Assembly: GCA_963765895.1 (NCBI GenBank)
Contig: CAVXZB010000038.1
Coordinates: 131,068 to 195,067, forward strand
Source: an uncultured Nitrososphaeraceae archaeon
GTDB taxonomy: Archaea; Thermoproteota; Nitrososphaeria; Nitrososphaerales; Nitrososphaeraceae
Direction of reading: 5' to 3'
DNA: 64,000 nucleotides
Part shown: in pieces, positions 4,994-31,053 of the stretch
How positions within the stretch are numbered: position 1 is the first letter of the stretch
How the letters are laid out: each line of letters opens with the position of its first letter
Notes under the pieces: model-generated
Databases searched by the model: none
What the model was told of the DNA's origin: nothing
What the model saw: only the letters and a program-made list of their open reading frames with translations
Made by a program: the position numbers and the translations under genes

Positions 4994-5435
4994 AATAATC
5001 ATGTATTCTGATTGCATACAATAAGTATCGCCGCTGGACTCGCCGGGGATGGTACAGAAGTCCATGACGATACTTGACCCGTAATGGGTATGTATAGTGC
5101 ACAATATTTTATATAAAAATTTACATAAAAAACGAAAAATCGCCGTTGAGACTCGTGAAAACAACGTGATCGAAGCATGTTATTAACGGGCGAGTCTCAA
5201 CAGCGACACACTCGTGTTATTCTTTGTTACACAATATTTTATTTAATGAATGCAGAAACCAGTCGTCTGTTTTATTAAGTTATTCTGGGCAAAGACTTTT
5301 TAATTATATAAACTGACACTTGTTAGGTTCTTTAATACGATAGGAGCACACAAAATTTACTAATCCTTTGATATCCTTCTAAAGTTCATAACTGGGCTGA
5401 TCTATATCTTCCGTAGAGGACAGGAAACATAGAAA

Positions 5436-6500
5436 ATGATTGATACTAATGGATACGCTGCCAAACAGATCAAACAACCTCTTACTCCATATTCATTTAA
5501 AAGACGTAATCCACTCGATAATGATGTCTTAATCGACATTCAATACTGCGGCATTTGTCACTCTGATATACATCAGGTACGTAACGAGTGGGGATCTTCC
5601 ACTTTTCCGATGGTTCCGGGACATGAGATAGTGGGAGTTGTCTTCACAAGTTGGTTCCAACGTAACTCGATTTAAAGTCGGCGACAGTGTCGCTGTGGGA
5701 AACTTTGTGGACTCTTCGGCGAGTGCAAACCGTGTGTCAACGGACTTGAACAATATTGCGTGAAGGGAGCAACTTGGACCTATAATGCACTCGAAAAATA
5801 TGAAGGTGAAAGTATGCCGACACAGGGCGGATACTCTGATAAAATAGTTGTGAAAGAAAAGTATGTCCTTCACATCCCTAACAACCTTCCTCTGGCTGCG
5901 TCAGCGCCGCTCCTCTGCGCAGGCATCACACTTTATTCGCCTCTTGTCCACTGGAAGGCGGGTCCTGGCAAGAAGGTAGCTATACTTGGATTAGGAGGCA
6001 TAGGTCATATCGGAGTGAAAATAGCACACGCACTTGGGGCTGAAGTCACTGTACTAAGCCATTCATTGAATAAACAAGATGAGGCCATACGAATGAAAGC
6101 CGATAGTTTTTATGCAACATCAGATCCAAGTACCTTCAAAAAGCTTAGGGGATATTTTGATTTAATAATTAATACGGTCTCAGTACAGATAGACCTGAAT
6201 AAGTATCTGAAACTATTAAAATTGGACGGTACAATGGTCATTGTTGGACTTCCAGAAAAGGAAATACAGTTTAATGCTTTTTCACTTACTAATGCACGTC
6301 GTAGTATAGCAGGTTCAGTCATAGGCGGGGTCAAAGAAACCCAGGATATGCTTAATTTCTGTAGCGAGCGCAACATTACTTGCGATGTCGAACTTATTCC
6401 AATTCAACAAGTAAACGAAGCATACGAGCGGGTTGTAAGCAGTGATGTTCGATATAGATTTGTTATAGACATTTTGAACTCACTTGCGTCCAAGAGTTGA
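5436..6500 (+). CDS. Zn-dependent NAD(P)H alcohol dehydrogenase, cinnamyl-ADH/YahK type (frameshifts at about 5640-5720)
   Basis: [30 protein letters not shown] and DVRYRFVID motifs. Confidence 0.9.
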
Positions 6501-6873
6501 TACCTGGTTTTCTACGTAGCACGTTATATTACAACATCACAAATCATGTGAGTGACGTAGACAAATCGTAGATATTTTTTGGAGGAAAGTGCTAATTATG
6601 AATTTACAAGTTGCCTCAGTTTACTTTATCACTCAATATCAATACACTCCTGTTTACGTCTAAACATATAGATCACTCCTATATCGAAGGAGAAATAACT
6701 AAGCACTAGAATGATATCACTAGGTACATCAACAAAATCAAAGCAAAAATATTGATGAGCGTATATCTTAATATGATACACTTTGTTCTAAAGACCTCTA
6801 TGATAGTTAGCGCGCTTTGTGCCTATAGCATCAATATAGCTACTGCATAATTAAAGAAACAAATATAATGTCC

Positions 6874-7881
6874 TTAGATTGACAAGAATTTTTGTGCATC
6901 GAAAAAGCTTTTGAGTTCCTTTGAAATCTGATCGCAGAATATTCCTAAAATCTCAAAGTCGAGAAGGTTAAGTTTCTTTTCACTAAACATAGCAAGAACA
7001 CCTATTGCATCGTGGTTGTAAATTAGTGGGTACCCTGCAAATGATTTCAAATTCTCCCTTTTTGCCCAGTCTTGATATTTTATTCTTGGATCGTTTACGA
7101 CATCATTTGTAATTACAGGCTTCTTGTTCTTAATTATAGGTCCAATCTTGACAGAATCTACGGATACTTTCGAAAATTCTCCGCTAATATTCTTGTATTT
7201 CCCGGCACTATATTTTAGTATTAGAAACTTTCTTTTACTATCAAGAAGCCAGATTCTTGCAAATTTTGCATCGAAATGTTTTACAACACTTTCTGCGGTC
7301 AGTTGAAGTTTATCGTTCAGGTTGTCGTATTTCTGAACCGAGTTCAAAATTCTGTACACCCGAGACTTTCTCTCAATCATGTTGTGTTCATCAAATATTG
7401 CGTACGGAGATGCCTTCAAAGTCTTCGACTCAAATGACCGATAGTCTAGAATCAGGTCTGCGAATCTATGTAAAAAATTGTTACTTTCTAGCTCATATTG
7501 TTCGGTGGATTCAAAAACAAAATGCGACACCCAATCAAATTCTCCTCCACTTAATTTAGCCGAGTAAATACAGAATGGGATTTCCTCTACGTAATTCGAC
7601 AGTCTCTCTATTAGAACGGATGAATTACTTGGATACTTGAACTTGAGGATTATCGTTCGGTTTAGTTTTTCAGATACAAGACTTGGATTAAGTATAGCGG
7701 AGTATCCTAGAACTATATGGTCGCGTTCCATTCGCTGGAGTCTGTATCTTATGGCTCTCTCCGTTATTTCATGTCCGATACTTTGGACTGCTTTTCGGAT
7801 TTCGCTCGATGAGCTGCGGGCATTCTTTCCAAGACAAGAAAGCACCACCTTGTCGATGTCATCTAACAAGAGCATACGCAC
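6874..7881 (-). CDS. Lrp/AsnC-family transcriptional regulator with C-terminal GAF domain
   Basis: N-terminal HTH (LDDIDK..NAR..ERAIRYRLQRME), a RAM-like middle region, and a GAF C-terminus (PVITNDVVNDPR..WAKRENLKSFAGYPL..IGVLAMFS). Confidence 0.85.
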   Translation of the reverse strand: MRMLLLDDIDKVVLSCLGKNARSSSSEIRKAVQSIGHEITERAIRYRLQRMERDHIVLGYSAILNPSLVSEKLNRTIILKFKYPSNSSVLIERLSNYVEEIPFCIYSAKLSGGEFDWVSHFVFESTEQYELESNNFLHRFADLILDYRSFESKTLKASPYAIFDEHNMIERKSRVYRILNSVQKYDNLNDKLQLTAESVVKHFDAKFARIWLLDSKRKFLILKYSAGKYKNISGEFSKVSVDSVKIGPIIKNKKPVITNDVVNDPRIKYQDWAKRENLKSFAGYPLIYNHDAIGVLAMFSEKKLNLLDFEILGIFCDQISKELKSFFDAQKFLSI

Positions 7882-8085
7882 TAGTACCGTTTAGTATTAT
7901 AATAACTTGCAATAGCCTACTGTCCGGCAAAAATAATCAAGATCAGTACGCTTTATCTTCAACTTCCGAAACTTATTCAAGGTCAGAATTAAGTCAGTAA
8001 CAATTTAGCAGAACAAAGATTACTTTATATAATTTTATCAAATCTGAGAATCCTATATAAACTCATTAGCATCATTATCACCAGA

Positions 8086-8214
8086 ATGTACAGGATTGAC
8101 TGGCTAACCTGTAACCGGTGTCAGGCCTCGTTCTACCTAAGAGGAGACCTGCAAATGTAAAAAGATTCTCTGATATGTCCAGATTGCTTTTTAGAAGAAT
8201 ATGAATTAAAATGA
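8086..8214 (+). pseudogene. Micro zinc-ribbon protein (CxxC...CxxC) with one in-frame TAA
   Basis: Manual translation MYRIDWLTCNRCQASFYLRGDLQM*KDSLICPDCFLEEYELK. TATA box CCTATATAAA at about 8052-8061, at leaderless-mRNA spacing. Confidence 0.6.
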
Positions 8215-8239
8215 GGTTAACTAAGTAACGATTTATCCC

Positions 8240-9450
8240 TACATCAGTCTCATCAGATAGCTTTCTTATTTTTTGGCAATTCTTTGGAATAGGCTCGCGT
8301 GAGCCAGATAGGGGTCACGATTGTAGTAAGTGCTAGCATTATGATTATTACCATATAGATATCAGATGTTAAAGCACCAGATGTTATACCCACCGCTGCC
8401 CACAAGTCCAACCTCTACACTCGATATCATTCCTATACCTACTTCCATAGACCTGTTTTGTCTCTTAAAAATAGGATTGATGATAATCCGCCCTCTTTCA
8501 TTTTCGTAATGATGGCAATTGATACGACTATCGCAGATAGATATAGTACTTCCATATTGATTCCCTTATGTACTTGCGCTCCAATAATAGGAAAGGATAA
8601 CGGAGCAAATATTATCTCTAGTTTTTGACATATTCTCCTATTGTTGATTCCTCTAGTACTTGCCATTGCCATACCAACAGCAAAAGCTCCTACAATTGGT
8701 AATAGCCCTACAAACGCTGCTATTCCAGCCGCTCCAAAAAATGAAGCCGTAACTATATACCTTCGACACTTCCCTTAGATTTCCCAAGTTTTCGACGTGT
8801 AATAGTTGTGCAACTAGTACAACAGCGCCTACAAGCAATACACAAAAATCCTAATATCTTTAAGACTAGAAATATGATATTTGTAATCTCTGGTGTCATT
8901 GTTCCTGTTCGAACCATAGTCGTTACTACTAACAGTACCGAAATTGATAGTATATCGTCGACTATCTCAGCTCCTAGTATTAATCTGGCACCTTTTAATT
9001 GCATTTTCCCTAATTCTGATGGCACTTGAATCGATATGACTATACTCATAGCAGTTGGTGCAGTAGCAACAAGCATTGATTCTAGTGCTTATAGTCCGAA
9101 TGGGGAGAAAAGAATATACGCCATGAAGAATGATATGATAACCCTATAGAGCCATCTGTAAATGAGGCTGCCTCGCCTCTTAGAAATTCCCCTGGAGTAA
9201 TTTCTAGCCCTGCTTTAAACAGATTACTATAGCAGATAATTCGCCAATATGCTTGATAGTTTCATCAAGATTAACTATGATCTTTCCCCCAAATGATATA
9301 AAGAGTTCCTAGTGCAAATGGACCTAGATTATACCAGCAAGTAATTCAACTAATACAACTGGTGTTTTTATCTATGAAAAATCTTAGCAAATACACTAGC
9401 AGTAAATAATAATATATCCTATGAAATTACTATATGTAAAAATACACTAT
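8240..9450 (-). pseudogene. Cation:proton antiporter (CPA2/KefB-like), multiply frameshifted; ends approximate
   Basis: ELLAGII.GP, LFKAGLEITPGEF, ARLILGAEIVDDILSI, IFAPLSFPIIGAQV, GMISSVEVGL fragments in several frames. Confidence 0.8.
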
Positions 9451-19078: not shown

Positions 19079-19336
19079 TTGGATCATACTTACTCACCAT
19101 ACACAGGAACAAACAAAAAGCAACGCATATGGGCGCTAGTATCAGATGGTAAATATTCCTCAGATCAGATAGCTTCAATGGTTGGTACTACTATAGAATA
19201 TGTCTGGAAGGAGACAAGTAGATGTAGAAAATCTACAACAGCAACTGGCCTTGTTCTTAGTAGGAGGACCACACAGCTATCAAAAAGAAAGGATGCAACA
19301 TACATCCATCTTTCCAACATAAACATCAAATATTGA
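19079..19336 (+). CDS. Small helix-turn-helix protein, possibly truncated
   Basis: KKQRIWALVSDGKYSSDQIASMVGTTIEYVWKETSR fits an HTH pattern. Confidence 0.55.
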   Translation: MDHTYSPYTGTNKKQRIWALVSDGKYSSDQIASMVGTTIEYVWKETSRCRKSTTATGLVLSRRTTQLSKRKDATYIHLSNINIKY

Positions 19337-19349
19337 AGCTATCAAAAGT

Positions 19350-20315
19350 TTAATTGCTACTGTTACTTTCCATTCTTACATAGTCGAGAACTACTTTACC
19401 TCTTGGATGGACATCCTTTTGGTAGTCTAGTGCCTTACCTGCCTCCTCTAGTAAAAATGTCCTGTCTACATTTACTTTTACATTATTTTAATCTACCCAC
19501 TGTGCCAATTTAGTCAGCCGTTCTCTATCTGCTTGTGTGAACTGAAATATTGCCTTGACATTATATTGATTCATCAGCTCTGAGTTTGGCTACTTTAGCA
19601 TAGAGATAATTATGCCACCTTTCTTTAAGACTTTGAAAGACCTTTTGTATGTGTCACCGCCTACAGTATCAAAGACTGAATCATAGTCATGCAGCAGATC
19701 TTCAAAGTTCTGGCTCTTGTAGTCTATGACTTGATCAGCTCCCAGTTCTTGGACAAACACCTTGTCATTTGCACTTGCCGTTGTCGCTATGAATGCTCCC
19801 AAGTTCTTGGCAAGCTGTATAGCAATTGATCCTATACCTCCTGCTCCACCATGAATTAGAATCCGTTGACCATTTGATAATCCAATGTTTTCAACAAGTG
19901 CGCGCCATGAACTAACGCCTACAAGTGGTAAGGCCGCCGCTTCGCCATGGCTTAGCCTCTTTGGTTTATTTGCGATAGTTTCTGTCTTTGCTAAAGCCAT
20001 TTCTGCAAATGCTCCTGACCCACCAGTTAGCTACTCCAGCTTGTCCATATACTTCATCTCCTTGCTTGAAATCTGATAGACACCTCCTCCAATTTCTTTG
20101 ACAATACCTAGAAAAATCCATACCCAATGTAAAGGGGAATTGAAGTTGTATCATTTGTTGAAAGTAACCTTCACGAATTTTCCAATCTACAGGATTTAGG
20201 CCAGCTGCTTTTACGCTAACTAAAACTTTTCCAGAAGATAAAGTTGGTTCAGGCGTATTTTGGTTAATCTCAATAACCTCACTGCCTCCGTACTGTTAAT
20301 TTGAGCAGACTTCAT
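19350..20315 (-). CDS. NADP-dependent MDR/quinone oxidoreductase, frameshifted
   Basis: MKSAQIN, AAGLNPVDWKIREG, FPFTLGMDFS, ILIHGGAGGIGSIAIQLAK, HPRGKVVL. Confidence 0.85.
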
Positions 20316-20796
20316 TGCCATATAATAAATTATGAGATATTAAAGAGTGTGCTAAAATGCAAGGTACAGAAGACGTTATGTGGGAACAGAAAATCATGGC
20401 GGATATCCTTAAGACGTACAGTGACCATATCATATCATGATGACGAATGTTCCGGAGTGGATTGGACCATAAAAAGCCGATCGCCGATTCTATGTCTTTC
20501 ATTCTAGCTAGTTCTAACGAATATCGAATTTCTTGCACGAAATCACCAGATTCTGAAAATGGTAGATTTCGAAAGCTTCCAGAGTAGGAATAACTGAAAA
20601 TGATATTGGCCTATTCAGATTATTCATTCTCTGAAGGTTGCATATTTTCGAATACTATAAAATCATTTGCTTCCGGAAATGCTATCTTGTTAGGTAAATT
20701 TTAAGTCTATTGATAACTTCTATAAACATAAGGTTTGAATCCGATATCTTATTCAAAACCAATATTTTTATAACTCCTCTAAAAGTTATTGTTTAC

Positions 20797-21775
20797 TTGG
20801 AAACTAGATTAATAATACTTGATGTTCTAGCATCACTAATTGTTCTTGCAATTGTATCAAGTATTGTTATATTGCAATTAGAAGCTTATGCTCTATCAAA
20901 GGATGTAGTTTAAGGTTCACAGCGGCAATTGACAACACTGGCAAATACTTCAGAACTATACTAACAGAAATGATAGCAGAGTATTATCAGATTCTCCTCC
21001 TACAAATATTCGTCCTAATATTCAAACAGATTATAATCTCAACATGCAACTTCTCCAAGAATATCTAAGTTTGCATATATTGATCCTCTTGCACTTCTTA
21101 TTGGAGACTATCAGATAGGAAGACTAGTGTTGATTGCACCATTTGCGGTATGTAGAAGTGATGAAGGAACGCCTATTCATATTGGAGACTATTCTAATAT
21201 GCAAGATGGTGTAATTTTACATGCTCTTGAAACAACATCATGGTAAGAATATTGATAATAGAATATATTGAGCAGCAGGGATATCTTTTGAAGGGAAATG
21301 ATACTGGCTATAAGGATGGTTTTGCAATATTTGTTGGTGATAAGGTTAGTTTAGCACATGGAGTACAGATACACGGGCGGCATTTATTGGAAAGACACAT
21401 TTGTAGGTATGAATAACTTGATCTTTAATACTAAAAGTTGGCATAGAGTGGCTATAGGAGATCAGTACGATAACCGAGGTGTTCCAATCCCTGACAATAA
21501 ATTTACCACCAGGAACGCTTGTAACTACACAAGCGGTTGCAAATGCTTTATCATCAATAGTTGGAAGCCAATATGGGGAGATAAACGGAGCTGTTCTGCA
21601 CGTAAATCAAGAGCTTGCAAAAGGATACAATGCACAAACCATTCAAAAACTGGCTACAGAGATGGAAGATGTGTTAGAGCAGGAAGAGATGCTTCAAACA
21701 GGTAGTCCAACAGGAAACCCAAATGATTTATCTAGTAATAATAATAACAGTGACCTGTCATACTTGAGGAAGTGA
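20797..21775 (+). pseudogene. cam: Gamma-class carbonic anhydrase (Cam-like) with signal peptide, fragmented
   Basis: AYIDPLALLIGD, APFAVCRSDEGTPIHIGDYSNMQDGVILHALET, VSLAHGVQIHG, VLHVNQELAKGY across frames. Confidence 0.82.
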
Positions 21776-22372
21776 AGATGACCAATGGGATAACTAATAA
21801 TACTTAGATAATAATGGAACATTAGGAAAGACGACTTTTAGTGGGCAGCTATAGTCGCAGTAATAGTATTAGCACAGGTGTTTACGCACTTTAGTCTACT
21901 ATGATAAAAACCATCGATAAAATGTAAAAACCAATAGTAGTCAATAGAAAAGTATACTGCTCACAGTCTACTGTCTTTTTATTATACCTGGCTCAAAAAA
22001 TGTAGTCCTATTATTTCCGGGCGTCATAATTAAAGTAATCTGCACCTGAACCTCCGTTGCTGGGTTTGTGCCTCCATTACCAAGTAAATTCCACGGCATG
22101 CCATTATTCATACCATTAATATATTTGAGCACTATCGATTTTCTTCCTTTCTATTACAGTGCTACACTTATGTAATCGAATTGTTAATAAAATAATGGTA
22201 CTTATTAGTAATAGAAACTGAAAGACGATTCTAATATCGAGGGGCGCACATACTCATGTTCCCGTTCATCTATACACGTACATATACAAGATAAGACCAG
22301 GATGAGCCCAATAAACGCTAAAACTATCGGCATTTCCACTCTGTCGACTCTGTCGACTCTGCAAATTGATGA

Positions 22373-22505
22373 TATTTGATTCAGGCAATAGCCAGTGAGT
22401 GTTAACACATCGGACAGTATAGGATTTTGACAAGTCCAGTATAATTATATCGGAAAAGTGCCTTCTAATACAGAAGTGCGGCAGGCACGTCAGATTATAA
22501 ACATT
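22373..22505 (+). repeat. Dispersed palindromic element, copy A
   Basis: About 130 bp of clear similarity to 26866-26995; core TAATACAGAAGTGC..GCACGTCAGATTATAAA. Confidence 0.88.
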
Positions 22506-22851
22506 TTCTAAATTGAGGTATCATCTGGAGAGCCAGACTTCGTTCGATGGGCATAGATGTTGATAGGGACAAAAAGTTTCATGTGTAACTCAATTTATGG
22601 CCCTCAAAAATGAATCTCATACCACCAGTAACATCAGCTCATCATGTTTTGTTTTCAACTCAAGTATTTTCTATCAAACGCAAGGTATATTGATGCATAA
22701 AACTAACCTCGTATTCGTTACCTTCAGGCAAGGTCATATACCTAAGTTATTGACAACGAAATAGCGCTTCGTTTCTAATCAACTGCGGTTAGAATCTTCT
22801 TCATAAAGAATAAGCATAATGTTCAACTATGACCAAACGTAGTATCATTGA

Positions 22852-23100
22852 TTGAACTATAAGATGATAATGGCAACAGCAATAATCGCAGCGGCCACGG
22901 TAACAGCATTCGGCATACCCAAGGTGGCGCACGCAGACGGATCAAGTGCAGGAAGTAGAGGGCGGCGCGAGAGGACTTTAGGAACCATGTAGGTTTTCAA
23001 GGAAGTTGCGCAGATCACGGATATGATGTGACTCTGAATCCTGGATGGTGTCTGGACTTTAAGAGCTGATACGCGATTCAGTGGGGGAGTCCTAAGTCTA
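22852..23100 (+). pseudogene. Small secreted Cys-containing peptide, frameshifted
   Basis: LNYKMIMATAIIAAATVTAFGIPKVAHA-DGSS signal peptide; a shifted frame gives DFRNHVGFQGSCADHGYDVTLNPGWCLDFKS. Confidence 0.5.
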
Positions 23101-23209
23101 GGTCAATAAGTAAACAAGTGTTTACGCTTACTTAAAACAGTCCTAACGTACAGTCTGAGCTTCTACATCAGCAACAGCCTTTACTACAGGGTTGCTGGCT
23201 CGTAGCACC

Positions 23210-23449
23210 TTATAGACTGGGTTTATTAAGGCAATGATTCTTAATATCATCTTTATAGTCCTTGGCGTTTTTATCTGATTTCTCCACGAGGCACGTTGTT
23301 GTGTCTCCCTCGCTACTAGCAAATGGGACCACGTCCTTAATAGGTTTATTGAGCCCCTCGGCGACAGGGGATATGGTATAAAGACTATGTATTGATAGAT
23401 TAAACCAACATGAAATAACCAATGCATTGTAAACAAATGCATTAACCAC
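23210..23449 (-). CDS. Small, probably secreted protein
   Basis: Hydrophobic N-terminus and a Cys pair (TTTCLVE...KNHCLNK). Confidence 0.4.
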   Translation of the reverse strand: MVNAFVYNALVISCWFNLSIHSLYTISPVAEGLNKPIKDVVPFASSEGDTTTCLVEKSDKNAKDYKDDIKNHCLNKPSL

Positions 23450-23731
23450 TCAAAATAAAAATTGTCGAAGTATAGACTATTGCAATTGTAACGAATTTGA
23501 AAAGGCAGTTGACTATTATAATATTCGATATTGTCGGCTTGAGGACGATAAGTTTAACGCAGTAAAAAAGGGGTTGTTCCCTATTTCCCCTCTTTAGATA
23601 TAGCGTCCCACTGCTAGTCTGGAGCCTTTCAAGTATTGTTCATGGTGTACAAAGAAACTAAAGCAACTAAAGAGTGAATAGTTATCCATACCACTTATAT
23701 CGACCATAGCCCTTAAAATCATACACGAATA

Positions 23732-23911
23732 ATGCAGCCATACCACATGCTATTTAAGAAGGCCGAAGAGGGAGGCTTTACAGGAAAGTGCTTAGAGTTA
23801 CCTGGAGCCATTTCTGAGGGAGAAACCATGGAAGAACTTAGAGAAACAGATAGAAGCACTCTTGTTAGCAAGAGTTATACAAGAAGTAGCAGAACTAAGG
23901 TAATGCGCTAG
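23732..23911 (+). CDS. hicB: HicB-family antitoxin (C-terminus probably frameshifted)
   Basis: Manual translation MQPYHMLFKKAEEGGFTGKCLELPGAISEGETMEELRE matches the HicB P.LPG..S.GET.EE signature; below the ORF-track cutoff. Confidence 0.85.
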   Translation: MQPYHMLFKKAEEGGFTGKCLELPGAISEGETMEELRETDRSTLVSKSYTRSSRTKVMR

Positions 23912-23951
23912 TGAACGAAGTAATCTAACAAAGTAATTATTGACTGACTAA

Positions 23952-24159
23952 TTGAGTCTACGAAATCATAACTGGCGTGAGGTAGTTAGAGTTCTAAGTC
24001 GTCATGGTTTTGATATGGAAAGTTGTGCTTGACAATCTCTATAACAATATATCGAAGAGATAAAGGATGATCCAAAATCAACAGATAAAACAGAGTACGT
24101 TAAGGGCTATTCTTGACCAGGCTGATATTTCAAGAGAGCAGTTTCTTAGCGAACTGTAG
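23952..24159 (+). pseudogene. hicA: HicA-family toxin, internally disrupted
   Basis: LSLRNHNWREVVRVLSRHGF start and IKQSTLRAILDQADISREQFLSEL end; the central GSH motif is missing. Confidence 0.78.
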
Positions 24160-24245
24160 CGTATAACTAGGATCAGTGTCGCAGACGGCACATGCGGCGT
24201 TTACAACGAACCAACTGACACTATTATTTCTTTTCTATATTTTTT

Positions 24246-24459
24246 ATGTTAAAGAGGCTAACTTCCAGTAAGTAGGCATTAGCTTGGTTTTGCTAATTGT
24301 AGGAACCGCCGCACCGACTACAATCTTGACAATTCAGCCAGCGCAGGCACAGCACAATCACTGTCGCTTGCCAAACGGGACCATTCCCCAGGCCAAGGAG
24401 ACCAAGGTTGTCCCCTGGGCTTAATTGATAACCCAGGGAGCGAACACGCAGGCAACTAA
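24246..24459 (+). pseudogene. Small secreted peptide with a Cys pair, frameshifted
   Basis: VGISLVLLIVGTAAPTTILTIQPAQA-QHNHCRLPNG, then in a shifted frame GQGDQGCPLGLIDNPGSEHAGN*; a T-run follows. Confidence 0.5.
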
Positions 24460-24472
24460 CTTTTTTTTATTT

Positions 24473-24777
24473 TTATTTATAAACTAAACAAACCGCATAT
24501 TTTTCATTTATATAGTAAAAAATCTCTGGCGATTTCACGAGGGAATTTATGAACTCCTTTTTGGTTTTAGTACACCACGGACAGAACCGAAAGGGGGCCA
24601 GCGACGCTATAGGCCTATCAAGACGCCGTAGGCCTATAAAATTGTGCATCATTGCATATACCAACCGTCTTTTGTTATAGCGTTATAGGAATTCTCCTTA
24701 GCCTTGTAGTAACAGACATCATATTCCACGCTTTTTTCAAATTTGCGACAACAATATTCTCCAGCCAATATAGTCAT
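24473..24777 (-). pseudogene. CC...FCPWC putative zinc-binding protein (DUF6980-like pattern), frameshifted
   Basis: MTILAGEYCCRKFEKSV... joined to ...APFRFCPWCTK; its start overlaps the upstream stop (TAATG). Confidence 0.5.
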
Positions 24778-24953
24778 TACGAATTATCTGTGACGTCTTT
24801 GCTGCCATTGCCATCGCTCTCGCTGTTATTGCTTTTCATTTTTTTAGTTTTGTTATGTGAATAGACAATAGTCCAGATAGTTGCTACAAAATATGGCAAC
24901 ATTATCAGTATTGCTACTACAGGTGTAACTTCAGTTGGAATGACTGTGACCAT
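24777..24953 (-). CDS. 58-aa single-pass membrane protein
   Basis: MVTVIPTEVTPVVAILIMLPYFVATIWTIVYSHNKTKKMK...; tightly packed with its neighbours. Confidence 0.5.
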   Translation of the reverse strand: MVTVIPTEVTPVVAILIMLPYFVATIWTIVYSHNKTKKMKSNNSESDGNGSKDVTDNS

Positions 24954-24960
24954 AATTTAA

Positions 24961-25125
24961 TTATCTCTCTTCAGTAACTTCTCCTTCTTCAACAATGAGG
25001 TTTGATATCTCTGAACCATCGACATGTCTTATTATGATATTGTATAAGTGGTCCATGCCTTGATCCCTATTCTCGCACTCGAAAGTTCCAGATATCTTAA
25101 AACTATAACGCTTTCTTTCTGTCAA
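24961..25125 (-). CDS. 54-aa hypothetical protein
   Basis: TTG start, (M)TERKRYSFKISGTFECENRDQGMDHLYNIIIRHVDGSEISNLIVEEGEVTEER; operon-like packing. Confidence 0.5.
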   Translation of the reverse strand: MTERKRYSFKISGTFECENRDQGMDHLYNIIIRHVDGSEISNLIVEEGEVTEER

Positions 25126-25150
25126 TGAATTCCACGTCTCAAGTAACTAA

Positions 25151-25372
25151 TCATTTACCCTTTTTTATCTCATCCGTGGTGTGCTGAAAGATTTTAGTCG
25201 TATATGTATTATTACTACTGCTACCGTTACTGGTTGGTGGGTGTGTCGTAAATGTATCATTTCCAAGTGCCTTCACATTTACACTAAGCGAGGCAAGTGA
25301 AGCAGATCCTGCCAGGACCATTGTAACTACGATGATACTCGCCAGAATAATTTTCTTGGTTAACGTTGTTAG
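25151..25372 (-). CDS. Small secreted or membrane-anchored protein (start codon unclear)
   Basis: TKKIILASIIVVTMVLAGSASLASLSVNVKA signal-like segment followed by a Thr/Ser/Asn-rich tail. Confidence 0.45.
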   Translation of the reverse strand, partial: LTTLTKKIILASIIVVTMVLAGSASLASLSVNVKALGNDTFTTHPPTSNGSSSNNTYTTKIFQHTTDEIKKGK

Positions 25373-25532
25373 TTAGTTTACTAGACCCCCTATTTGATAA
25401 CTATGTCATTTCTGTCTTTACCTGATATCACTAGCATAAAGGGTTCCTTAAGATTTCTAATGGGTTGTTTAGACCGTGAGTCAGCGTTTTTATACGACCT
25501 TGTGCCTTTACTCGTATAGAGCCCTTAATTAG

Positions 25533-25565
25533 GTCAAATTTGATTCACACACCCTTTGGGCCCCA
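25533..25565 (-). repeat. Dispersed ~30-bp motif, family 2
   Basis: Reverse complement TGGGGCCCAAAGGGTGTGTGAATCAAATTTGAC resembles the copies at 37905, 42345 and 61479. Confidence 0.6.
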
Positions 25566-25611
25566 GAAGATATATAGCACTAAGAGGCTAGATGATTTGG
25601 ATAACAAGTAA

Positions 25612-25869
25612 TTATATGAATAAGTCCTTTTTTTGATGATTGGACGTTCTTTTTGCTAATGGTGCTTTGCTAATGGTGCTTCTTGGTAAACACTTGTTGT
25701 AGGTGGATTCGGTCTTTTGCAGTTCAGTAACTGATCGATTGTCAAGATTTGGATCTTTGGATACTTGTGTTTCTAGACAGATGATGCATAAGGATCTGTT
25801 ATTTTAGGTTCCTTTATCATTTTACTTGTCATCTCTTATCTGTGCTTCTCTATGATTGATCCCATCATT
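25612..25869 (-). pseudogene. C-terminal remnant of a DNA methyltransferase/Mrr-like restriction endonuclease fusion
   Basis: TSKMIKE...YASSV*KHKYPKIQILTIDQLLNCKRPNPP..YQEAP resembles the YPxIQILTIxxLL tail I recall for this family. Confidence 0.65.
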
Positions 25870-25932
25870 GATGATGTTCCACCGGTTGTATCCAATTATT
25901 AAAATAATAGATAGTAATAATAACAAGAACAT

Positions 25933-26169
25933 CTAGTGTGAGCGATAATAATGATGGCTGTCGCTAGTTCTCCTCTTATCAAAAGAAGCAGCATTCCGTG
26001 GCGGAGGAGGACTATCATTCTCATGTCCTGAATGTGTTCTAATATGATTCCAATAGTCTGAACTTGTGATCGCAGTTTTACATACAGGACAATTGGCATA
26101 CCCACATCTATGATGTCCTATAAAGTTTGGATGAAGCGTAATGTTACATCTATCACATTTATTTTGCAT
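25933..26169 (-). CDS. Small zinc-finger protein (C2H2-like)
   Basis: CDRC..HHRC and CPVC....YWNHIRTH. Confidence 0.7.
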   Translation of the reverse strand: MQNKCDRCNITLHPNFIGHHRCGYANCPVCKTAITSSDYWNHIRTHSGHENDSPPPPRNAASFDKRRTSDSHHYYRSH

Positions 26170-26755
26170 GTCTATTTTATCACTTTTGTCGTTGATAGTA
26201 GTATGTGCATATCATAATTAGGATGTATCGAACGATTGCACTTATATCACGCTGGATAAGATGAAGCTCCAATTACTATATGAAGTGAGAATAGTTATAG
26301 TTATTTCACATGCATTCTGGATATACATAGGCTAATCAGATAACAGTTTATATATGTCTTAGTCATGGGCATGCTCTAGTACTGGGTGACGCGGTCCCAC
26401 TACCTATTTCATAAGTAGCGGGCCGTGAATTATTATTTCCCCTACCGGTGCATTATATCCAGCATGATATCCGGCGCAGTGGTCTGCTGTGTGGTTTACA
26501 CATACCTCTAGTTCAGGATGATCAAGCATCCGAAGATCCTTCCGGATATCCATCAATATAGATTATGTTCTTAGGCGTTGGTTCGAATGTACTCACAAAT
26601 ATTCCCTGCTCGTATTCGAAGATATACTCAGCCGAATGCGCCTGTCTATGAGGGACTATGTATTGATCATAGTACATGCATATAATATATTGCCGCCGTA
26701 ATATCAGGCTCTCACTTCATCGGTACATGATGTAGATGTCTCTTTAAATCCTGTG

Positions 26756-26810
26756 TTCTCTAATACTGATGTGCCGCATATCAGATTATAAATATCTGCT
26801 TAAATTGAGG
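26756..26810 (+). repeat. Dispersed palindromic element, copy B (core only)
   Basis: TAATACTGATGTGCCGCATATCAGATTATAAATATCTGCTTAAATTGAGG. Confidence 0.82.
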
Positions 26811-26865
26811 CGACTCTACAAATGCTGATCTATAGGTAGTAGCAAGTGATGGATGTGAACCAGTG

Positions 26866-26995
26866 TATTTAATTCAGTCAATCACCAGTAAGTTTTAACA
26901 CATCGGACAGTATCGGATTTTGACACGCCCGTATAATTATACCGGAAAAATATCTTCTAATACCGATGTGCGACATGCCAGATTATAAATACTTC
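26866..26995 (+). repeat. Dispersed palindromic element, copy C
   Basis: TTAACACATCGGACAGTATCGGATTTTGACA...GTATAATTATACCGGAAAA...CTTCTAATACCGATGTGCGACATGCCAGATTATAAA; matches copy A. Confidence 0.88.
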
Positions 26996-27418
26996 TGAAA
27001 ACAGGCATAGGATGTAATGATCAGTGCCTATGGGTTATGGCAAAAAACTTATGTACAGGCTGCTCAAGAGGCGCGCCCGCCACACCAAAAAGGAAATAGG
27101 AATGTTATGATAATAATGATAATAATATCGTCAGGCTAGGTTACGTTCGCGCTCCTTCTTCTTCGTCATCTGATTTCCAAATAAAAAATGATGAAATAAT
27201 GATAAAAATAATACGGCATCTACCACTAGAAATATCAACAATTACTTGAAGCGCAGGGCGGATGAGACAAATGAAATCCTGCTAAGCAGTGATGTTTAAG
27301 CTTTGATCTCTAAATGATCTAACTGGATAGTAACGTCTGGAAGAGTAGCCTTATCAGATTAATGAGTTTGTATATATCTTCTATTTATTACTGTATCAAA
27401 ATACGGTAATAAATTTTG

Positions 27419-27578
27419 CTACTGTTGATTAATGCAATTAAGACACCATTGTTGATCTACTGGCAGAGCTTCTGTTCTGGGCTCAGGTACCTCTACTGCT
27501 CATACCGCTATTCACGTCCTGTTCAGATATAACTCGTACAAGGTATTTTGTATCTTTGCCACATTTGTCACATAGCAT
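27419..27578 (-). pseudogene. Micro zinc-ribbon protein, frameshifted
   Basis: MLCDKCGKDTKYLVRV..., then in a shifted frame EALPVDQQWCLNCINQQ*. Confidence 0.55.
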
Positions 27579-27754
27579 ATTATTTTTCTTACGATCTATT
27601 CGTTTGACATTATATAATAAGAAATCGTCCTTCAATCCATCAAATAAGAAATTGTAGACAATTCAATTAATCGTTATAATGTAGGCAAATACACTCAAGG
27701 ATTAAAGAACAACACAGATGGCCCACTTGGTATCTACATACAACATGATAACTA

Positions 27755-27850
27755 GGAAAAGTCCCTTCTAATATAGATGTGCCGCACGCCAGATTATAAA
27801 CATTTGGTAAAGTGGTATCTTATATGGATAGACCAGCTTGGTTGAATGCA
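27755..27850 (+). repeat. Dispersed palindromic element, copy D, next to the integrase 3' end
   Basis: GGAAAAGTCCCTTCTAATATAGATGTGCCGCACGCCAGATTATAAACATTT; the downstream bases also resemble those after copy A. Confidence 0.85.
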
Positions 27851-27883
27851 CATAGAACTGAGTAGTTGATACTGCCCCAAATG

Positions 27884-29096
27884 CTAAGTCATGCCCGGCG
27901 CGCCAGCAACCTGTCTTCTTTCGATTTCCTGTAACCTAGCTGATAATGACACAAGCTGATCTGATAACCGGCTATGGCATCATCCTTTATTTTATCGCGC
28001 TGTCTTAGTGATTGATTCAATTCTTCCAATTCCTCTACCTTAGTCTGTATATCGGCGCCCTGTCTTTCTAGTTGCTGGACATTAAGGAATATAGATAAGG
28101 TTCAATTTTACGGAATATCTCAGCTTTTTCCCGAATCCTTTTTGCGCCAGTATGTAGAACCTGCGTGTCCTATAATATTCCGAGTAATCAGCATAACCTA
28201 GGTCAGATATGGTAGTCTTAACAAACCTTCTAAATGAATGAAGAGTTATCTGTCTTCGTCGTTCGTTACCATCCTCTCTTGCATCTTTACCTATACGATC
28301 TATTGTCATTTGAAAAGACTTTAGCAAGTCGTTATAAAGCCACAAATAATTTGGTCTTTCAATATCTTGGTAAACTGCAAATACAAAATCAGTATTAATC
28401 ATAGTGGGATTTCTATATTCTGAAATGGTTTTTCCATCTTGCTTGCCTTTGTGGCAGACTCTCCTGGTTCGATATTTATAATCTAGCCATGATTTTAACT
28501 GATTGGCGACTTCGTTAGTTAGAAAAATAATTCTATCTGATCTGGTCTTAGTATATTCACCTCTTATAGATAATTTTGAAGGAGTTGAGTCAAAAATCCA
28601 AGTCCTTTACACGTATTGATAAAGCTTCTCCTGCACGCATACCGGTGGTTGCTAACAACATCGTAAAAGTTTTTAGCATGATGTCAGACGATGGCATTTA
28701 ATATCTCTACGATATCCTCTTTAGATATCGCCCTTTATATCTTATTGCTGTGATTTATACCTTTAGTTATCTACGTACTAAAATATATTCATGATACTCA
28801 AGAAAGTTTTTTTATCGTTACGACTCGCTGCTTCAGCGTAATTGTTGAAATCCTGTTTTCACTTGAATATCTAGCATATCTATTGAGAAGAGAGTAAGCA
28901 TCTTCTTTATTCTTCTGATTTTTGAAATCAAATCCGCTAAATCTAACGAGTATTTATCCTCCACAAATTTCTTGAAAGTTTTAAGCCTTGCATGATATTC
29001 TCTTGCGGTTAATTTGTTCATCATGCTTACATTTGTGACGTATTCAGAGATTAGATAATCTGAATTCAAATTATATTTTATTACGCTTAAACTCAT
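27884..29096 (-). pseudogene. Tyrosine recombinase/integrase, multiply frameshifted
   Basis: Motifs across frames: LLATTGMRAGEALSIRVKDL (catalytic R), RGEYTKTRSDRIIFL (K), TLHSFRRF (HxxR), GHAGSTYWR (H/Y), then a coiled-coil-like tail. Confidence 0.9.
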
Positions 29097-29130
29097 ATAC
29101 TCCGTATTTACAGTCTTATATTCAACGCAA

Positions 29131-29409
29131 TTATGTAATTTGCTCTACTATCCACTCTTTGAACTTTATAATTGCAAATACTTCAGACTGCTTGATAAAA
29201 GCAGGATCTTTTATTTTCCATTCAGCTTGGGGAATAGAATCAAAAAACTCTTGCATACACAAAGTAAATCTGAAGCGTAAATTTCTTGGGTTTTCAGTTA
29301 TTCCATAATGATATAAAATATCATTAATCTTTTCGAATGCATCATCATAATCTCTTTTAAATGATGGCATTTCAAAAACGTGATACAATATTGAAATTAT
29401 TGCATCCAA
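29131..29409 (-). CDS. Hypothetical protein co-oriented upstream of the integrase
   Basis: 92-aa ORF ending 34 bp before the integrase start. Confidence 0.5.
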   Translation of the reverse strand: MDAIISILYHVFEMPSFKRDYDDAFEKINDILYHYGITENPRNLRFRFTLCMQEFFDSIPQAEWKIKDPAFIKQSEVFAIIKFKEWIVEQIT

Positions 29410-29643
29410 ATCCCCACGTATGGTAATCAGATTTTATTCCCTAATTAGACTTCACTTCTTATCTAATTATGTATTTGTCAATATATAGCTAGTCAAACAT
29501 TTTCAGCTATAACTGGCCTAAGGCCAATTACATTTGCTCTAGCTAAGTTAGGACTAACTTTAGCAACTATTAGCCGATTTTCCTTGTCTAATAAGACAAT
29601 ACAATCCATTCTCTTTTATTTGACAGATAATAGTTAGTATCAG

Positions 29644-31053
29644 TTAGAACAGTTCACCCTGATATTCGAGATCGCTAAAATCTAAGGTATTGTTATATGC
29701 CGTTTCTCTTAACATTTTAATAGTCTTCGACGAAAAGTCAAATATCTTGTTTGATATAATATGTTCATCATTTTTTCGGTTTATCCGTACTATTTTGCCT
29801 ATTTCATATTGTCCGACAAGTATATCTGAATATTTTCTATTTCTAAAGGCCAGACCGTGATTCATAGTCTTTCTGTCTAATAAGGCATTTATGACGTCAT
29901 CTTTTACACCATTATCTTTTGCAATCTTGATTAGCTCTCTTGCTAGATCGACGTAGTCAGATACTAGTAATAGGACCTGTTCATCACGTCCTGTTCTGTC
30001 AGAAAAGGTTATGTCGCCATTTCTATTTACGATCCCATCGCGGTCCCAGGGAATCCTGTCTTGCTTAACTGGATGGACATTTACCAAGGCTATATTCAAT
30101 CTTGGAACAGTGTGTTTGAAACCCTTTCTCTTCAGCCAATATTGCCGGTGTAGCAGAACGACCTGCGATAGAGGAGTATTACTCATTATTCCGCCGTCCC
30201 AAAAGTACCGGATACTTTTCTCGTAGTCAGATTTAACGCTATTATAGCTTTCGACTTCTAAAGTGCTGTAGCCATAGTTAAGTGGTACAGATGCACTTGC
30301 AATAACATGATCAGCTGTGATCCCGTCGTTGTACCTTATAACATGTGTGAATCCTACTTCTTTTCCATCTTGTACATTATATTTTCCATACCCAGATTTT
30401 CTTGTACCGTCTTCCTTTTCGTAACTATCAAATACTACAGTCGCACCTTCTGCTACGTCAACACTAACTAGGATGAGTCTTGGTTTAGTCAACGAATCTC
30501 TTTCGTCAAAAGTTGTCGCTATTGGAAACTTTGCGAACCTTTCTAAGCTTCTCTTTAGTGGACCACTGTCAAAGCGATACCATATATTTTGGGGATCAAA
30601 AAATTTAGCATCGAGTTGTGGTGTTAAAGGAGAAAAAACAGTAGGTACTCCTGTAACCGAAAACTCTTTTGTAGAATAATATCGCCTCGCAGCTTCTCCA
30701 GTGGCTATACCGCGGTCAATGTTGTTGTGTAAGTAATCCCACCAATTTGTAAAGCCAGGAATACAATCCAATAATGATTCCTTTGATAAATATTCCCAGA
30801 ATTCTACTAGTCTTTCAGAAGAGCCCTCCCATGTATTATTTTCCATCACATAGCTCACGATAACTGCTGAATTTATAGCCCCAATCGAAGTCCCAGCGAC
30901 AATATCTAAGAACGGTTTACCTTTAAACCCCCTTTCCTTATCCTTTTTGGTGACTATTTCATACAATGCCTGATATGCTCCTGCTTCATACGCTCCAAGT
31001 GAACCGCCACCCTGTAGGACTAGTACTCTTTGGAAATCTGGTAAATCCTTCAT
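29644..31053 (-). CDS. Patatin-like phospholipase, copy 2 (intact)
   Basis: QGGGSLGAY, GTSIG, WDGG; uninterrupted 469-aa ORF. Confidence 0.93.
   Translation of the reverse strand: MKDLPDFQRVLVLQGGGSLGAYEAGAYQALYEIVTKKDKERGFKGKPFLDIVAGTSIGAINSAVIVSYVMENNTWEGSSERLVEFWEYLSKESLLDCIPGFTNWWDYLHNNIDRGIATGEAARRYYSTKEFSVTGVPTVFSPLTPQLDAKFFDPQNIWYRFDSGPLKRSLERFAKFPIATTFDERDSLTKPRLILVSVDVAEGATVVFDSYEKEDGTRKSGYGKYNVQDGKEVGFTHVIRYNDGITADHVIASASVPLNYGYSTLEVESYNSVKSDYEKSIRYFWDGGIMSNTPLSQVVLLHRQYWLKRKGFKHTVPRLNIALVNVHPVKQDRIPWDRDGIVNRNGDITFSDRTGRDEQVLLLVSDYVDLARELIKIAKDNGVKDDVINALLDRKTMNHGLAFRNRKYSDILVGQYEIGKIVRINRKNDEHIISNKIFDFSSKTIKMLRETAYNNTLDFSDLEYQGELF

What the first reader, a model, noticed from the sequence alone, without database searches (positions are those of the whole stretch)
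22373..29600. Integrase-linked array of palindromic sites interleaved with cassette-like cargo: candidate integron-like gene-capture platform in an archaeon
Seen: a tyrosine recombinase (27884-29096, minus strand) has four same-orientation copies of one non-coding element downstream of its 3' end (27755, 26866, 26756, 22373). I found no copy elsewhere in the window. Between the copies lie only short, unrelated genes: HicB/HicA, a restriction-modification tail, three zinc-binding micro-ORFs, several secreted peptides and a packed micro-operon. Known: integron cassette arrays and pdif modules combine a tyrosine recombinase with repeated palindromic sites and small cargo rich in toxin-antitoxin genes. 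The sites here lack the attC RYYYAAC/GTTRRRY pair, and I did not recognise the IntI-specific insertion, so this is not a classical integron. Inference: a different recombinase/site pair that accretes cargo, or the scars of repeated tandem integration. Spacing is uneven (0.1-4.3 kb) and the integrase is broken, so it may be a relic.
Basis: partly seen in the sequence, partly recalled or inferred. Interest (0 to 1): 0.8.

Follow-up and report, generated by a model that had tools for sequence, protein, structure and literature searches.

The report
Mobile-element relic array, not integron
The four repeated sites are worn copies of a roughly 330-base non-coding module from a family of integrating plasmid-like elements that litters this archaeon's genome, so the locus looks like a graveyard of old insertions and not a working gene-capture machine.

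Summary
The four same-orientation copies and the broken tyrosine recombinase are real. The element is not special to this locus. A profile finds 113 copies in the 4.9-Mb genome. It occurs in 5 of 6 sister species and in 0 of 34 genomes of other genera. It is a non-coding module of about 330 bp: ATCGGA-type direct repeats, a short dyad, an A/T-rich TTATAAA stretch and a GGCGCGCC end motif. In the best-kept copies it sits just 3' of a primase/helicase replication gene. In 4 copies it abuts the 3' end of a convergent integrase. It does not fold and has no attC boxes. Its ends are ragged.

Window 19313-29128 is a mosaic of DNA that recurs elsewhere in the genome. A sister species has this block cut down to 1.17 kb, and none of the deletion ends lies in a site. 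Genome-wide, 45 of 50 neighbouring copies are co-oriented.

Best reading: repeated co-oriented site-specific integration of related elements, followed by decay. An integron-like platform is not supported.

The parts
19313..29128 (.). 9.8-kb island: a mosaic of repeated, decayed mobile-element DNA that holds the whole finding
   Evidence: Sister species G004:C190 matches the window up to 19312 (93%) and again from 29129 (91%), with only 1.17 kb between. Inside these limits every 200-nt bin but a few recurs 1-38 times elsewhere in the genome. Single-copy DNA resumes outside.
22221..22250 (+). Half-core remnant (fifth, partial copy)
   Evidence: family D14 (76% to copy D). One search match at 22230 with 2 mismatches.
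22359..22644 (+). Copy A: inner left arm, core and right part. Its subfamily is shared with contigs C76 and C40.
   Evidence: profile positions 39-322, E 1.4e-54. (83-84% to C76 and C40). (right-flank cluster 2).
26759..26811 (+). Copy C: about 50 nt of core only, directly ahead of copy B (a tandem pair)
   Evidence: E 8.9e-06. Similar tandem pairs occur on C75, C28, C24 and C27.
26823..27119 (+). Copy B: full-length copy whose right part contains the GGCGCGCC end motif. Its subfamily is shared with C26, C25 and C59.
   Evidence: positions 9-309, E 9.3e-69. (right part and flank like C26/C25/C59).
27736..27950 (+). Copy D: core and right part without the left arm. Its end motif overlaps the last codons of the integrase.
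   Evidence: The same arrangement occurs at C60:3043-3360, C32:6302-6613 and C24:233840-234161.
27884..29096 (-). Tyrosine recombinase pseudogene
   Evidence: at least 5 frame changes, plus stops. (Pfam PF00589 on 28590-28697). (tblastn to intact paralogue C68, 31-50% identity in three frames).
23732..23911 (+). HicB-like remnant (weak), part of the DNA that G004 also keeps as scraps
   Evidence: UPF0150 E 0.003, below cut-off. (G004 scraps match 23382-23476, 23888-23918, 24023-24079).
19590..20000 (-). Fragment of a zinc-type alcohol dehydrogenase gene at the left edge of the island
   Evidence: ADH_zinc_N E 1e-14 on a 136-aa piece. Neighbouring frames hold further pieces.

Best explanation
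The four sites are ragged remnants of one non-coding module of about 330 bp. The module belongs to a genus-specific family of integrating, self-replicating plasmid-like elements that encode an archaeo-eukaryotic primase with a PriX domain, a P4/D5-type helicase Rep with a zinc-type C-terminal domain, and a tyrosine integrase.

In the best-preserved elements the module starts about 75 nt after the rep stop codon. In some architectures it ends at the stop codon of a convergent integrase gene. It carries two direct half-repeats of about 30 bp holding ATCGGA motifs, a short dyad, an A/T-rich TTATAAA stretch and a GGCGCGCC end motif.

I infer that it is the element's double-stranded cis-acting control region. 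Most likely it is the Rep-bound origin, by analogy with origins that lie just 3' of rep in pRN1-type plasmids. It may also hold arm or core sites for the integrase.

The window block 19313-29128 arose by several independent, co-oriented, integrase-mediated insertions of related elements next to one another (accretion). Pseudogenisation and deletion then removed the replication genes, killed the integrase and truncated the modules.

Shown: the copies, their genome-wide spread, the linkage to rep and integrase, the co-orientation, the decay, and the lack of site-bounded differences between species. Inferred: the origin or attachment function, and integration as the cause of co-orientation.
For: Spread. 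There are 113 copies in the genome and 127 with a longer model. The element occurs in 5 of 6 sister species and in 0 of 34 genomes of other genera.

Linkage. 17 of 113 copies have the rep 3' end within 600 nt upstream on the same strand (15% against 0.7% of random positions). 32 of 113 have primase fragments within 5 kb (28% against 4.8%). 27 of 113 have integrase fragments within 5 kb (24% against 8.3%).

The upstream gene is a replication gene. Pfam gives PriX and DUF5906 helicase with a Walker A motif. The Rep C-terminus is a Cys/His-rich domain that ends about 75 nt before the module. A fairly intact element lies at C24:210153-217028, ordered integrase, primase, helicase, module.

In 4 copies, including D, the module ends in the last integrase codons.

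Flanks. Left flanks cluster (largest cluster 21 of 111) while right flanks are diverse (largest 5 of 112).

Orientation. 45 of 50 neighbouring copies within 10 kb are co-oriented, in 27 runs of 2 to 7 copies. A, B and D belong to different subfamilies, so they are not local duplicates.

Decay. The integrase has at least 5 frameshifts. No ORF of 120 aa or more lies in 20000-29644. The whole block recurs elsewhere in the genome.

The sister species keeps only five scraps of the block, and the deletion ends fall outside all copies. Metagenome contigs repeat that haplotype.

Precedents. The pRN1 origin lies within 166 bp 3' of its rep gene (PMC4234260, abstract read). Arrays built by re-use of attachment sites are known (PMC6563490 passages; PMC5704250 passages).
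Against: No primase or Rep remnant is detectable anywhere in the window. The units between the copies therefore cannot be recognised as former elements, apart from the one integrase.

About 60-70% of copies genome-wide have no element gene within 5 kb. This could mean the module spreads on its own.

I found no attL/attR pair and no empty site. Three attempts to find one in sister genomes failed, and no flanking direct repeat was seen at the C24 element.

Unlike the pRN1 origin, the module has no stable stem-loop.

Two metagenome joints link repeat copies in register. One is 26919 to 27755 (one contig, 50 nt on the shorter side). The other is 22591 to 26963 (one contig, 25 nt on the shorter side). 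They could reflect recombination between sites, though paralogous loci explain them as well.
Confidence: 0.6

Rival explanations
1. Integron-like or cassette-type gene-capture platform. The integrase recombines the repeated sites, and the DNA between two sites is a mobile cassette.
For: Co-oriented sites with small, unrelated ORFs between them lie next to a tyrosine recombinase. Co-oriented arrays are general in this genome (45 of 50 pairs). A is a mosaic of B-left and D-right. One metagenome contig joins B's left arm in register to D's core, skipping 835 nt. Another joins 22591 to 26963.
Against: The sites lie at the 3' end of the integrase, not at an attI-like 5' position. There are no RYYYAAC/GTTRRRY pairs in 0 of 8 site-strand combinations. 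There is no fold. An intact paralogue scores 23.6 bits against a cut-off of 265 on the integron-integrase model. ORFs lie on both strands. The 'cargo' itself is repeated elsewhere in the genome. The sister-species differences never end in a site. Only 6 of 113 copies are within 500 nt of any integrase fragment. Copy ends are ragged. The joints are single contigs at an 88% threshold, and in-genome paralogues with that same joined structure exist (C60, C32, C24).
Confidence: 0.07
2. The module is a non-autonomous mobile element (MITE- or satellite-like) that proliferates on its own, mobilised in trans by the integrase or another enzyme. Its presence near element genes is secondary.
For: Copies (113) outnumber Rep C-terminal remnants (32 tblastn pieces) and integrase loci (50). 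Most copies have no element gene within 5 kb. Many copies have unique flanks on both sides. There is a mode of right ends at the GGCGCGCC motif (43 of 127 hits end at profile positions 480-539).
Against: The left end is not discrete: profile start positions are spread evenly. Right ends also fall at many points from +10 to +115. I saw no terminal inverted repeats and no target duplications. Strong co-orientation of neighbours is not expected from transposition.
Confidence: 0.15
3. The module is a portable promoter or regulatory region. TTATAAA would be an archaeal TATA box and the ATCGGA repeats would be regulator sites. It would drive downstream genes or a small RNA, and in the circular form perhaps the integrase operon.
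For: A conserved TTATAAA sits at a fixed place after a dyad. In the A subfamily, co-oriented small secreted-protein genes follow. In the C24 element, the integrase would lie downstream of the module after circularisation.
Against: The nearest downstream ORFs are more often on the opposite strand (55 opposite, 40 same, 18 none, of 113). In D-type copies it would fire antisense into the integrase. There is no conserved ORF start at the end motif (12 of 72 copies match, ORFs of 5-57 aa). There is no Rfam family and no conserved structure. The one RNA library gave only a 35-nt contig piece on copy D and cannot show starts.
Confidence: 0.12

Closest known systems
Tandem accretion of integrative elements at re-used attachment sites (ICE/IME/CIME arrays in bacteria; arrays of integrated elements noted for archaea)
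   Same: Co-oriented repeats bound successive units. Old units have lost their integration and replication genes. A tyrosine recombinase sits at one end. The model is described in PMC5704250 (passages), and arrays through re-use of a site are noted in PMC6563490 (passages).
   Different: No attL/attR crossover was mapped here. The repeat is a module of about 330 bp with ragged ends, not a short attachment core next to a tRNA or other target gene. No tRNA gene lies in the window.
Integrated mobile elements of Thaumarchaeota with integrase plus primase/helicase replication genes (Krupovic et al. 2019, PMC6563490)
   Same: A tyrosine integrase together with an archaeo-eukaryotic primase and helicase, integrated in ammonia-oxidising archaea. 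That paper describes short attachment sites and tandem integration.
   Different: I cannot say whether this family or its module was catalogued. The genus here is an uncultured Nitrososphaerales lineage (the title of a related record).
pRN1-type plasmid origin just 3' of the primase-helicase gene
   Same: A cis-acting region lies immediately downstream of a primase/helicase rep gene (PMC4234260 abstract; here).
   Different: The pRN1 origin is a 100-nt stem-loop. This module shows no folding beyond shuffles and instead has direct repeats and an A/T-rich stretch.
Integron (IntI, attI, attC cassette array)
   Same: A tyrosine recombinase beside repeated co-oriented sites with small ORFs between them.
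   Different: The integrase is not IntI-like. There are no attC boxes or fold. The sites lie 3' of the integrase. ORFs lie on both strands. The sites are dispersed genome-wide.
MITEs and other non-autonomous repeats
   Same: A short non-coding unit present in more than 100 copies in a prokaryote genome.
   Different: It has no inverted termini, no discrete left end and no target duplications. Neighbouring copies are co-oriented.

Membership tests
Integron | IntI-type integrase (integron-integrase model, with its extra domain) | tested here: not met
   The intact paralogue C68 scores 23.6 bits on TIGR02249 against a cut-off of 265, and 63.6 bits on archaeal XerA against 220. The window copy is too broken to score. 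Its pieces give only PF00589.
Integron | attC sites with RYYYAAC ... GTTRRRY boxes | tested here: not met
   0 pairs in 8 site-strand combinations (four copies with 60-nt flanks). The whole window has 4 per strand.
Integron | attC folds as an imperfect single-strand hairpin | tested here: not met
   Fold z-scores of 67 distinct copies: mean -0.15, 10% below -2. Window copies: -0.04, 0.04, 0.62. For the left part, mean z was -0.47 and -0.43 on 36 of 41 copies, with DNA parameters. RNAalifold gave no pair on 67 copies.
Integron | Array starts at attI/Pc at the 5' side of intI, with co-oriented cassettes | tested here: not met
   All sites lie beyond the 3' end of the integrase, and ORFs between them lie on both strands.
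Tyrosine recombinase (Pfam PF00589) | Catalytic-domain profile match | tested here: met
   Window 28590-28697 scores 28.1 bits against a cut-off of 27.1. Paralogue C68 gives E 1.5e-09 and phrog_1 integrase E 5e-16.
Tandem accretion array of integrative elements | Co-oriented repeats that bound successive units | tested here: met
   Four of four copies are on the + strand in the window. 45 of 50 neighbouring pairs are co-oriented genome-wide.
Tandem accretion array of integrative elements | Repeats are attL/attR products with a defined crossover | tested here: inconclusive
   No empty site was found. No flanking repeat was seen at the C24 element. Right ends have a mode at the GGCGCGCC motif but are otherwise ragged.
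Tandem accretion array of integrative elements | Units hold remnants of element genes | tested here: inconclusive
   In the window only the integrase is detectable, with no Rep or primase piece at E up to 1e-3. In other arrays Rep pieces precede the copies.
MITE | Discrete ends with inverted termini and target duplications | tested here: not met
   Profile start positions are spread evenly, and end positions are only partly peaked. Truncation points vary.
pdif / Xer modules | 28-bp dif-like sites in alternating orientation bounding modules | tested here: not met
   All copies share one orientation, and the unit is about 330 bp. A dif-like 11-6-11 site was not searched for.
SSV-type integrase | Attachment site inside the integrase gene, which is split on integration | tested here: inconclusive
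   The end motif overlaps only the last codons of the gene. The gene here is broken by frameshifts and is not split into two halves at a site.

The most novel reading that the evidence does not exclude
The module of about 330 bp is itself the docking site of a Nitrososphaerales-specific family of integrases. Incoming elements insert next to resident copies in a fixed orientation. This builds the 27 co-oriented runs seen in this genome and similar runs in a sister species. It would be an archaeal accretion system that stockpiles cargo such as small secreted proteins, toxin-antitoxin remnants and patatin-like genes. It would work like CIME/ICE accretion, or loosely like an integron, but with an unrelated double-stranded site.
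Probability: 0.2. Interest if true: 0.6.

Novelty: new member of a known kind. Interest (0 to 1): 0.3.

Why it matters
For the scan, this removes a false lead: there is no archaeal integron here. For the biology of soil ammonia-oxidising archaea, it shows that one uncultured genus with unusually large genomes (3.4-4.9 Mb in the genomes searched) carries more than 100 copies of a single mobile-element control module. These sit in co-oriented runs among pseudogenes. That pattern points to heavy, repeated invasion by integrating primase/helicase plasmids and rapid decay, and it may explain part of the genome inflation. The module is also a convenient marker for finding intact elements, their attachment sites and perhaps a usable replication origin for a group that has no genetic tools.

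Tried and rejected
1. Structured RNA or single-strand hairpin. By eye I saw a hairpin of about 115 nt between the core and the end motif. It was not borne out. RNAalifold gave no pairs on 67 copies. Fold z-scores equal those of shuffles. There is no Rfam family and no tRNA in the window.

2. The ATG in the end motif as a gene start. 12 of 72 copies match, with ORFs of 5-57 aa. Rejected.

3. Integrase adjacency as a rule. Of 50 integrase loci, only 4 overlap a copy and 2 more lie within about 380 nt.

4. Empty-site search in sister genomes for three other regions. These gave mosaic matches or contigs that break at the repeats, so no answer.

5. Flanking direct repeats at the C24 element: none above chance.

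6. Viral contigs: 0 exact matches to a gapped pattern. Genome contigs: 1 match. The pattern is strict, so this does not show absence.

7. Public runs. No run holds more than 0.14 of the sampled words. The laid contigs come from relatives, so parts without cover mean nothing. The RNA run cannot show transcription.

8. Strand of neighbouring ORFs: only a mild bias.

9. Earlier findings of this scan: none for this genome or this sequence.

10. Literature. Two searches for repeats or MITEs in ammonia-oxidising archaea or Nitrososphaerales listed nothing relevant. This is no proof that the element is unpublished. The supplementary tables of PMC6563490 could not be seen.

Full report
THE OBSERVATION

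The window holds four + strand copies of one non-coding element. Their cores lie at 22464, 26759, 26956 and 27767. A 16-nt degenerate pattern matches all four exactly. It gives 6 matches at up to 2 mismatches, against a mean of 0.74 in 100 shuffles, and none of the 100 shuffles reaches 6.

The copies are unequal:
- A (22359-22644) lacks the outer left part.
- B (26823-27119) is full length.
- C (26759-26811) is about 50 nt of core set directly ahead of B.
- D (27736-27950) has the core and right part but no left arm.
- A fifth half-core lies at 22221-22250.

A is a mosaic: its left arm resembles B (86%) and its right arm resembles D (73%).

The tyrosine recombinase at 27884-29096 (minus strand) changes frame at least five times and has in-frame stops. 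One 35-aa piece still passes Pfam Phage_integrase.

There is no tRNA gene and no Rfam family in the window.

The word 'palindromic' is only weakly justified. Each core has a 4-5 bp dyad, but the sites do not fold better than shuffled sequence.

THE ELEMENT IS GENOME-WIDE AND GENUS-SPECIFIC

- A profile built from the four cores finds 53 hits at E below 0.01 in the 4.9-Mb, 88-contig genome.
- An extended profile finds 113 hits at E below 1e-3.
- A longer profile finds 127 hits at E below 1e-5.
- BLAST with copy A finds the element in 5 of 6 other species of the genus. It is found in none of 34 genomes of other genera of the family and order.

ANATOMY

An alignment of 71 copies and the listing show a conserved block from about 215 nt before to about 115 nt after a fixed TTATAAA. 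From left to right it holds:
- two direct half-repeats of about 30 nt that carry ATCGGA motifs;
- a short dyad;
- the A/T-rich TTATAAA stretch;
- a conserved TGTATAGA-type box;
- in many copies, an end motif containing GGCGCGCC.

The left end is not discrete. Right ends have a mode at the end motif (43 of 127 hits end at profile positions 480-539), but otherwise they fall at many points.

A hairpin of about 115 nt that I thought I saw was not supported:
- RNAalifold finds no pair on 67 distinct copies.
- Fold z-scores average -0.15, and the window copies score -0.04, 0.04 and 0.62.
- The left part gives -0.47 and -0.43 on 36 of 41 copies with DNA parameters.

The ATG inside the end motif does not open a conserved ORF. 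12 of 72 copies match, and their ORFs are 5-57 aa.

WHAT THE ELEMENT BELONGS TO

Clustering of ORFs around the copies shows recurrent co-oriented upstream genes.
- Some are fragments of an archaeo-eukaryotic primase with a PriX domain.
- Others are fragments of a helicase-type Rep. Its last 68 residues are Cys/His-rich, and its stop codon lies about 75 nt before the module.
- The helicase part hits DUF5906 and shows a Walker A motif.

A fairly intact element lies at C24:210153-217028 with the order integrase, two small ORFs, primase, helicase, Rep C-terminus, module.

Association counts, (n = 113 copies):

| Feature near a copy | Copies | Share | Random positions |
|---|---|---|---|
| Rep 3' end within 600 nt upstream, same strand | 17 | 15% | 0.7% |
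| Primase pieces within 5 kb | 32 | 28% | 4.8% |
| Integrase pieces within 5 kb | 27 | 24% | 8.3% |
| Integrase pieces within 500 nt | 6 | 5.3% | 1.5% |

Of 50 integrase loci, 4 overlap a copy (C60, C32, C24 and the window's D), and 2 more lie within about 380 nt. In those four loci the end motif overlaps the last integrase codons.

Left flanks cluster (largest cluster 21 of 111), while right flanks are diverse (largest 5 of 112).

The module is therefore the non-coding region that follows rep. In one architecture it fills the gap between convergent rep and int genes.

THE LOCUS IS A DECAYING MOSAIC

A sister species (G004, contig C190) matches the window at 93-96% up to 19312 and at 91% from 29129. 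Between these points it has only 1.17 kb. That stretch holds five scraps of the window block:
- 23382-23476
- 23888-23918
- 24023-24079
- 25910-25931
- 26411-26438

It also holds a 734-bp stretch (L018 6836-7569, running on from the left-flank gene) that has no counterpart at this window locus. A BLAST against G000 finds only a 66%-identical match elsewhere, on contig C84.

The ancestor therefore had the block, and G004 lost A, C, B, D and nearly all of the integrase by deletions. None of the deletion ends lies inside a copy. Metagenome contigs of one run repeat the G004-like joints: 23477 to 23888, 23918 to 24023, 24085 to 25910, 25931 to 26412 and 28756 to 29129.

Within the genome, almost every part of 19313-29128 recurs 1-7 times elsewhere. 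The modules recur 18-38 times and the integrase catalytic part 25-31 times. Single-copy DNA resumes outside those limits.

No ORF of 120 aa or more lies between 20000 and 29644. The small ORFs mostly have no family. The HicB call is sub-threshold. No Rep or primase remnant is detectable in the window.

CO-ORIENTED ARRAYS ARE GENERAL

Of 50 neighbouring copy pairs within 10 kb, 45 share orientation. 77 of the 113 copies lie in 27 runs of 2 to 7 copies. These pairs are not independent, because blocks have been duplicated.

In the window, A, B and D belong to different subfamilies. A goes with C76 and C40. B goes with C26, C25 and C59. D goes with C60, C32 and C24. They are therefore separate arrivals and not local duplicates.

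Separate arrivals that land side by side in one orientation are what repeated site-specific integration next to a resident copy produces. This process is documented for bacterial ICE/IME/CIME arrays (PMC5704250, passages) and noted for archaeal integrated elements (PMC6563490, passages).

MECHANISM, AND HOW SURE I AM

Best reading (0.6): the block is a stack of old, co-oriented integrations of related primase/helicase/integrase elements that has since decayed. The repeated 'site' is their cis-acting module of about 330 bp. I infer that the module is chiefly the Rep-bound origin. It has iteron-like repeats and an A/T-rich stretch just 3' of rep, as in pRN1, where the 166 bp downstream of rep hold the origin (PMC4234260 abstract). 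Unlike pRN1 it has no stem-loop. It may also hold integrase sites, because its end overlaps the integrase stop codon in four loci. No crossover point was mapped.

Rivals:
- A self-spreading non-autonomous element (0.15). Copies outnumber element genes and many are solitary, but the ends are ragged and neighbours are co-oriented.
- A portable promoter (0.12). There is a TATA-like box, but downstream genes are more often on the opposite strand.
- An integron-like capture platform (0.07). The IntI model, attC boxes, fold, site position and ORF orientation were all tested and not met. Species differences do not end at the sites. Two single-contig joints between repeat copies remain compatible with recombination between sites, but loci with that same joined structure exist as paralogues in this genome.

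NOVELTY

Integrated primase/helicase/integrase elements and tandem arrays are a known kind. This module family and its abundance in one uncultured Nitrososphaerales genus appear undescribed in the papers I could search. I could not see the supplementary tables of PMC6563490.

Noticed in passing
L030 (G001:C49) 4642-8838 and L031 (G006:C589) 3915-8102: Intact elements in sister species encode a protein of about 1,400 aa. Its middle part resembles the N-terminal half of the Rep fragment on C75 (L009:2881-4077). Its C-terminus is a family B DNA polymerase domain (E 1e-34 to 1e-36). The gene is flanked by a PriX-type primase gene and by one (G006) or two (G001) tyrosine integrase genes. A helicase-like/PolB fusion on an integrase-borne archaeal element may deserve its own look.
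   Followed up: partly
window 29644-31053 (minus strand): An intact patatin-like phospholipase gene (469 aa, Pfam E 1.5e-21) lies just outside the island. Parts of it recur about 10 times in the genome, and homologues sit near other module copies (cluster 3).
   Followed up: partly
window 25520-25570: A short stretch resembles, by eye, the shared sequence that follows the stop codon of a second group of integrase genes (contigs C18, C26, C59). It may be the remnant of a further, different integrase module inside the island.
   Followed up: no
genome-wide (G000): There are 50 loci with tyrosine-integrase fragments, only about ten of them near full length. Together with many frameshifted genes in repeat-rich contigs, this suggests massive invasion by mobile elements followed by decay in a 4.9-Mb genome.
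   Followed up: partly
G000 contigs C24:216734-234161, C48:36677-42012, C25:23431-34098: These are larger co-oriented runs of the same module (7, 5 and 4 copies). Between the copies lie genes for secreted Cys-rich proteins, beta-propeller-like proteins and sugar-binding protein fragments.
   Followed up: partly
L018 (G004:C190) 6838-7490: The sister species continues the left-flank gene into a C-terminal part with two Cys pairs. The window lacks this part, so the left edge of the island in the window is a truncation of that gene.
   Followed up: partly
window 24961-25125 (minus strand): A 54-aa ORF in the 'micro-operon' recurs nearly unchanged at 5 loci near other module copies (cluster 17). 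It has no Pfam family.
   Followed up: no
window 21127-21775 (+ strand): A gene is broken over three frames here. From recall only, its pieces look like a hexapeptide-repeat or gamma-carbonic-anhydrase-type protein. Pfam gave no hit on the pieces.
   Followed up: partly
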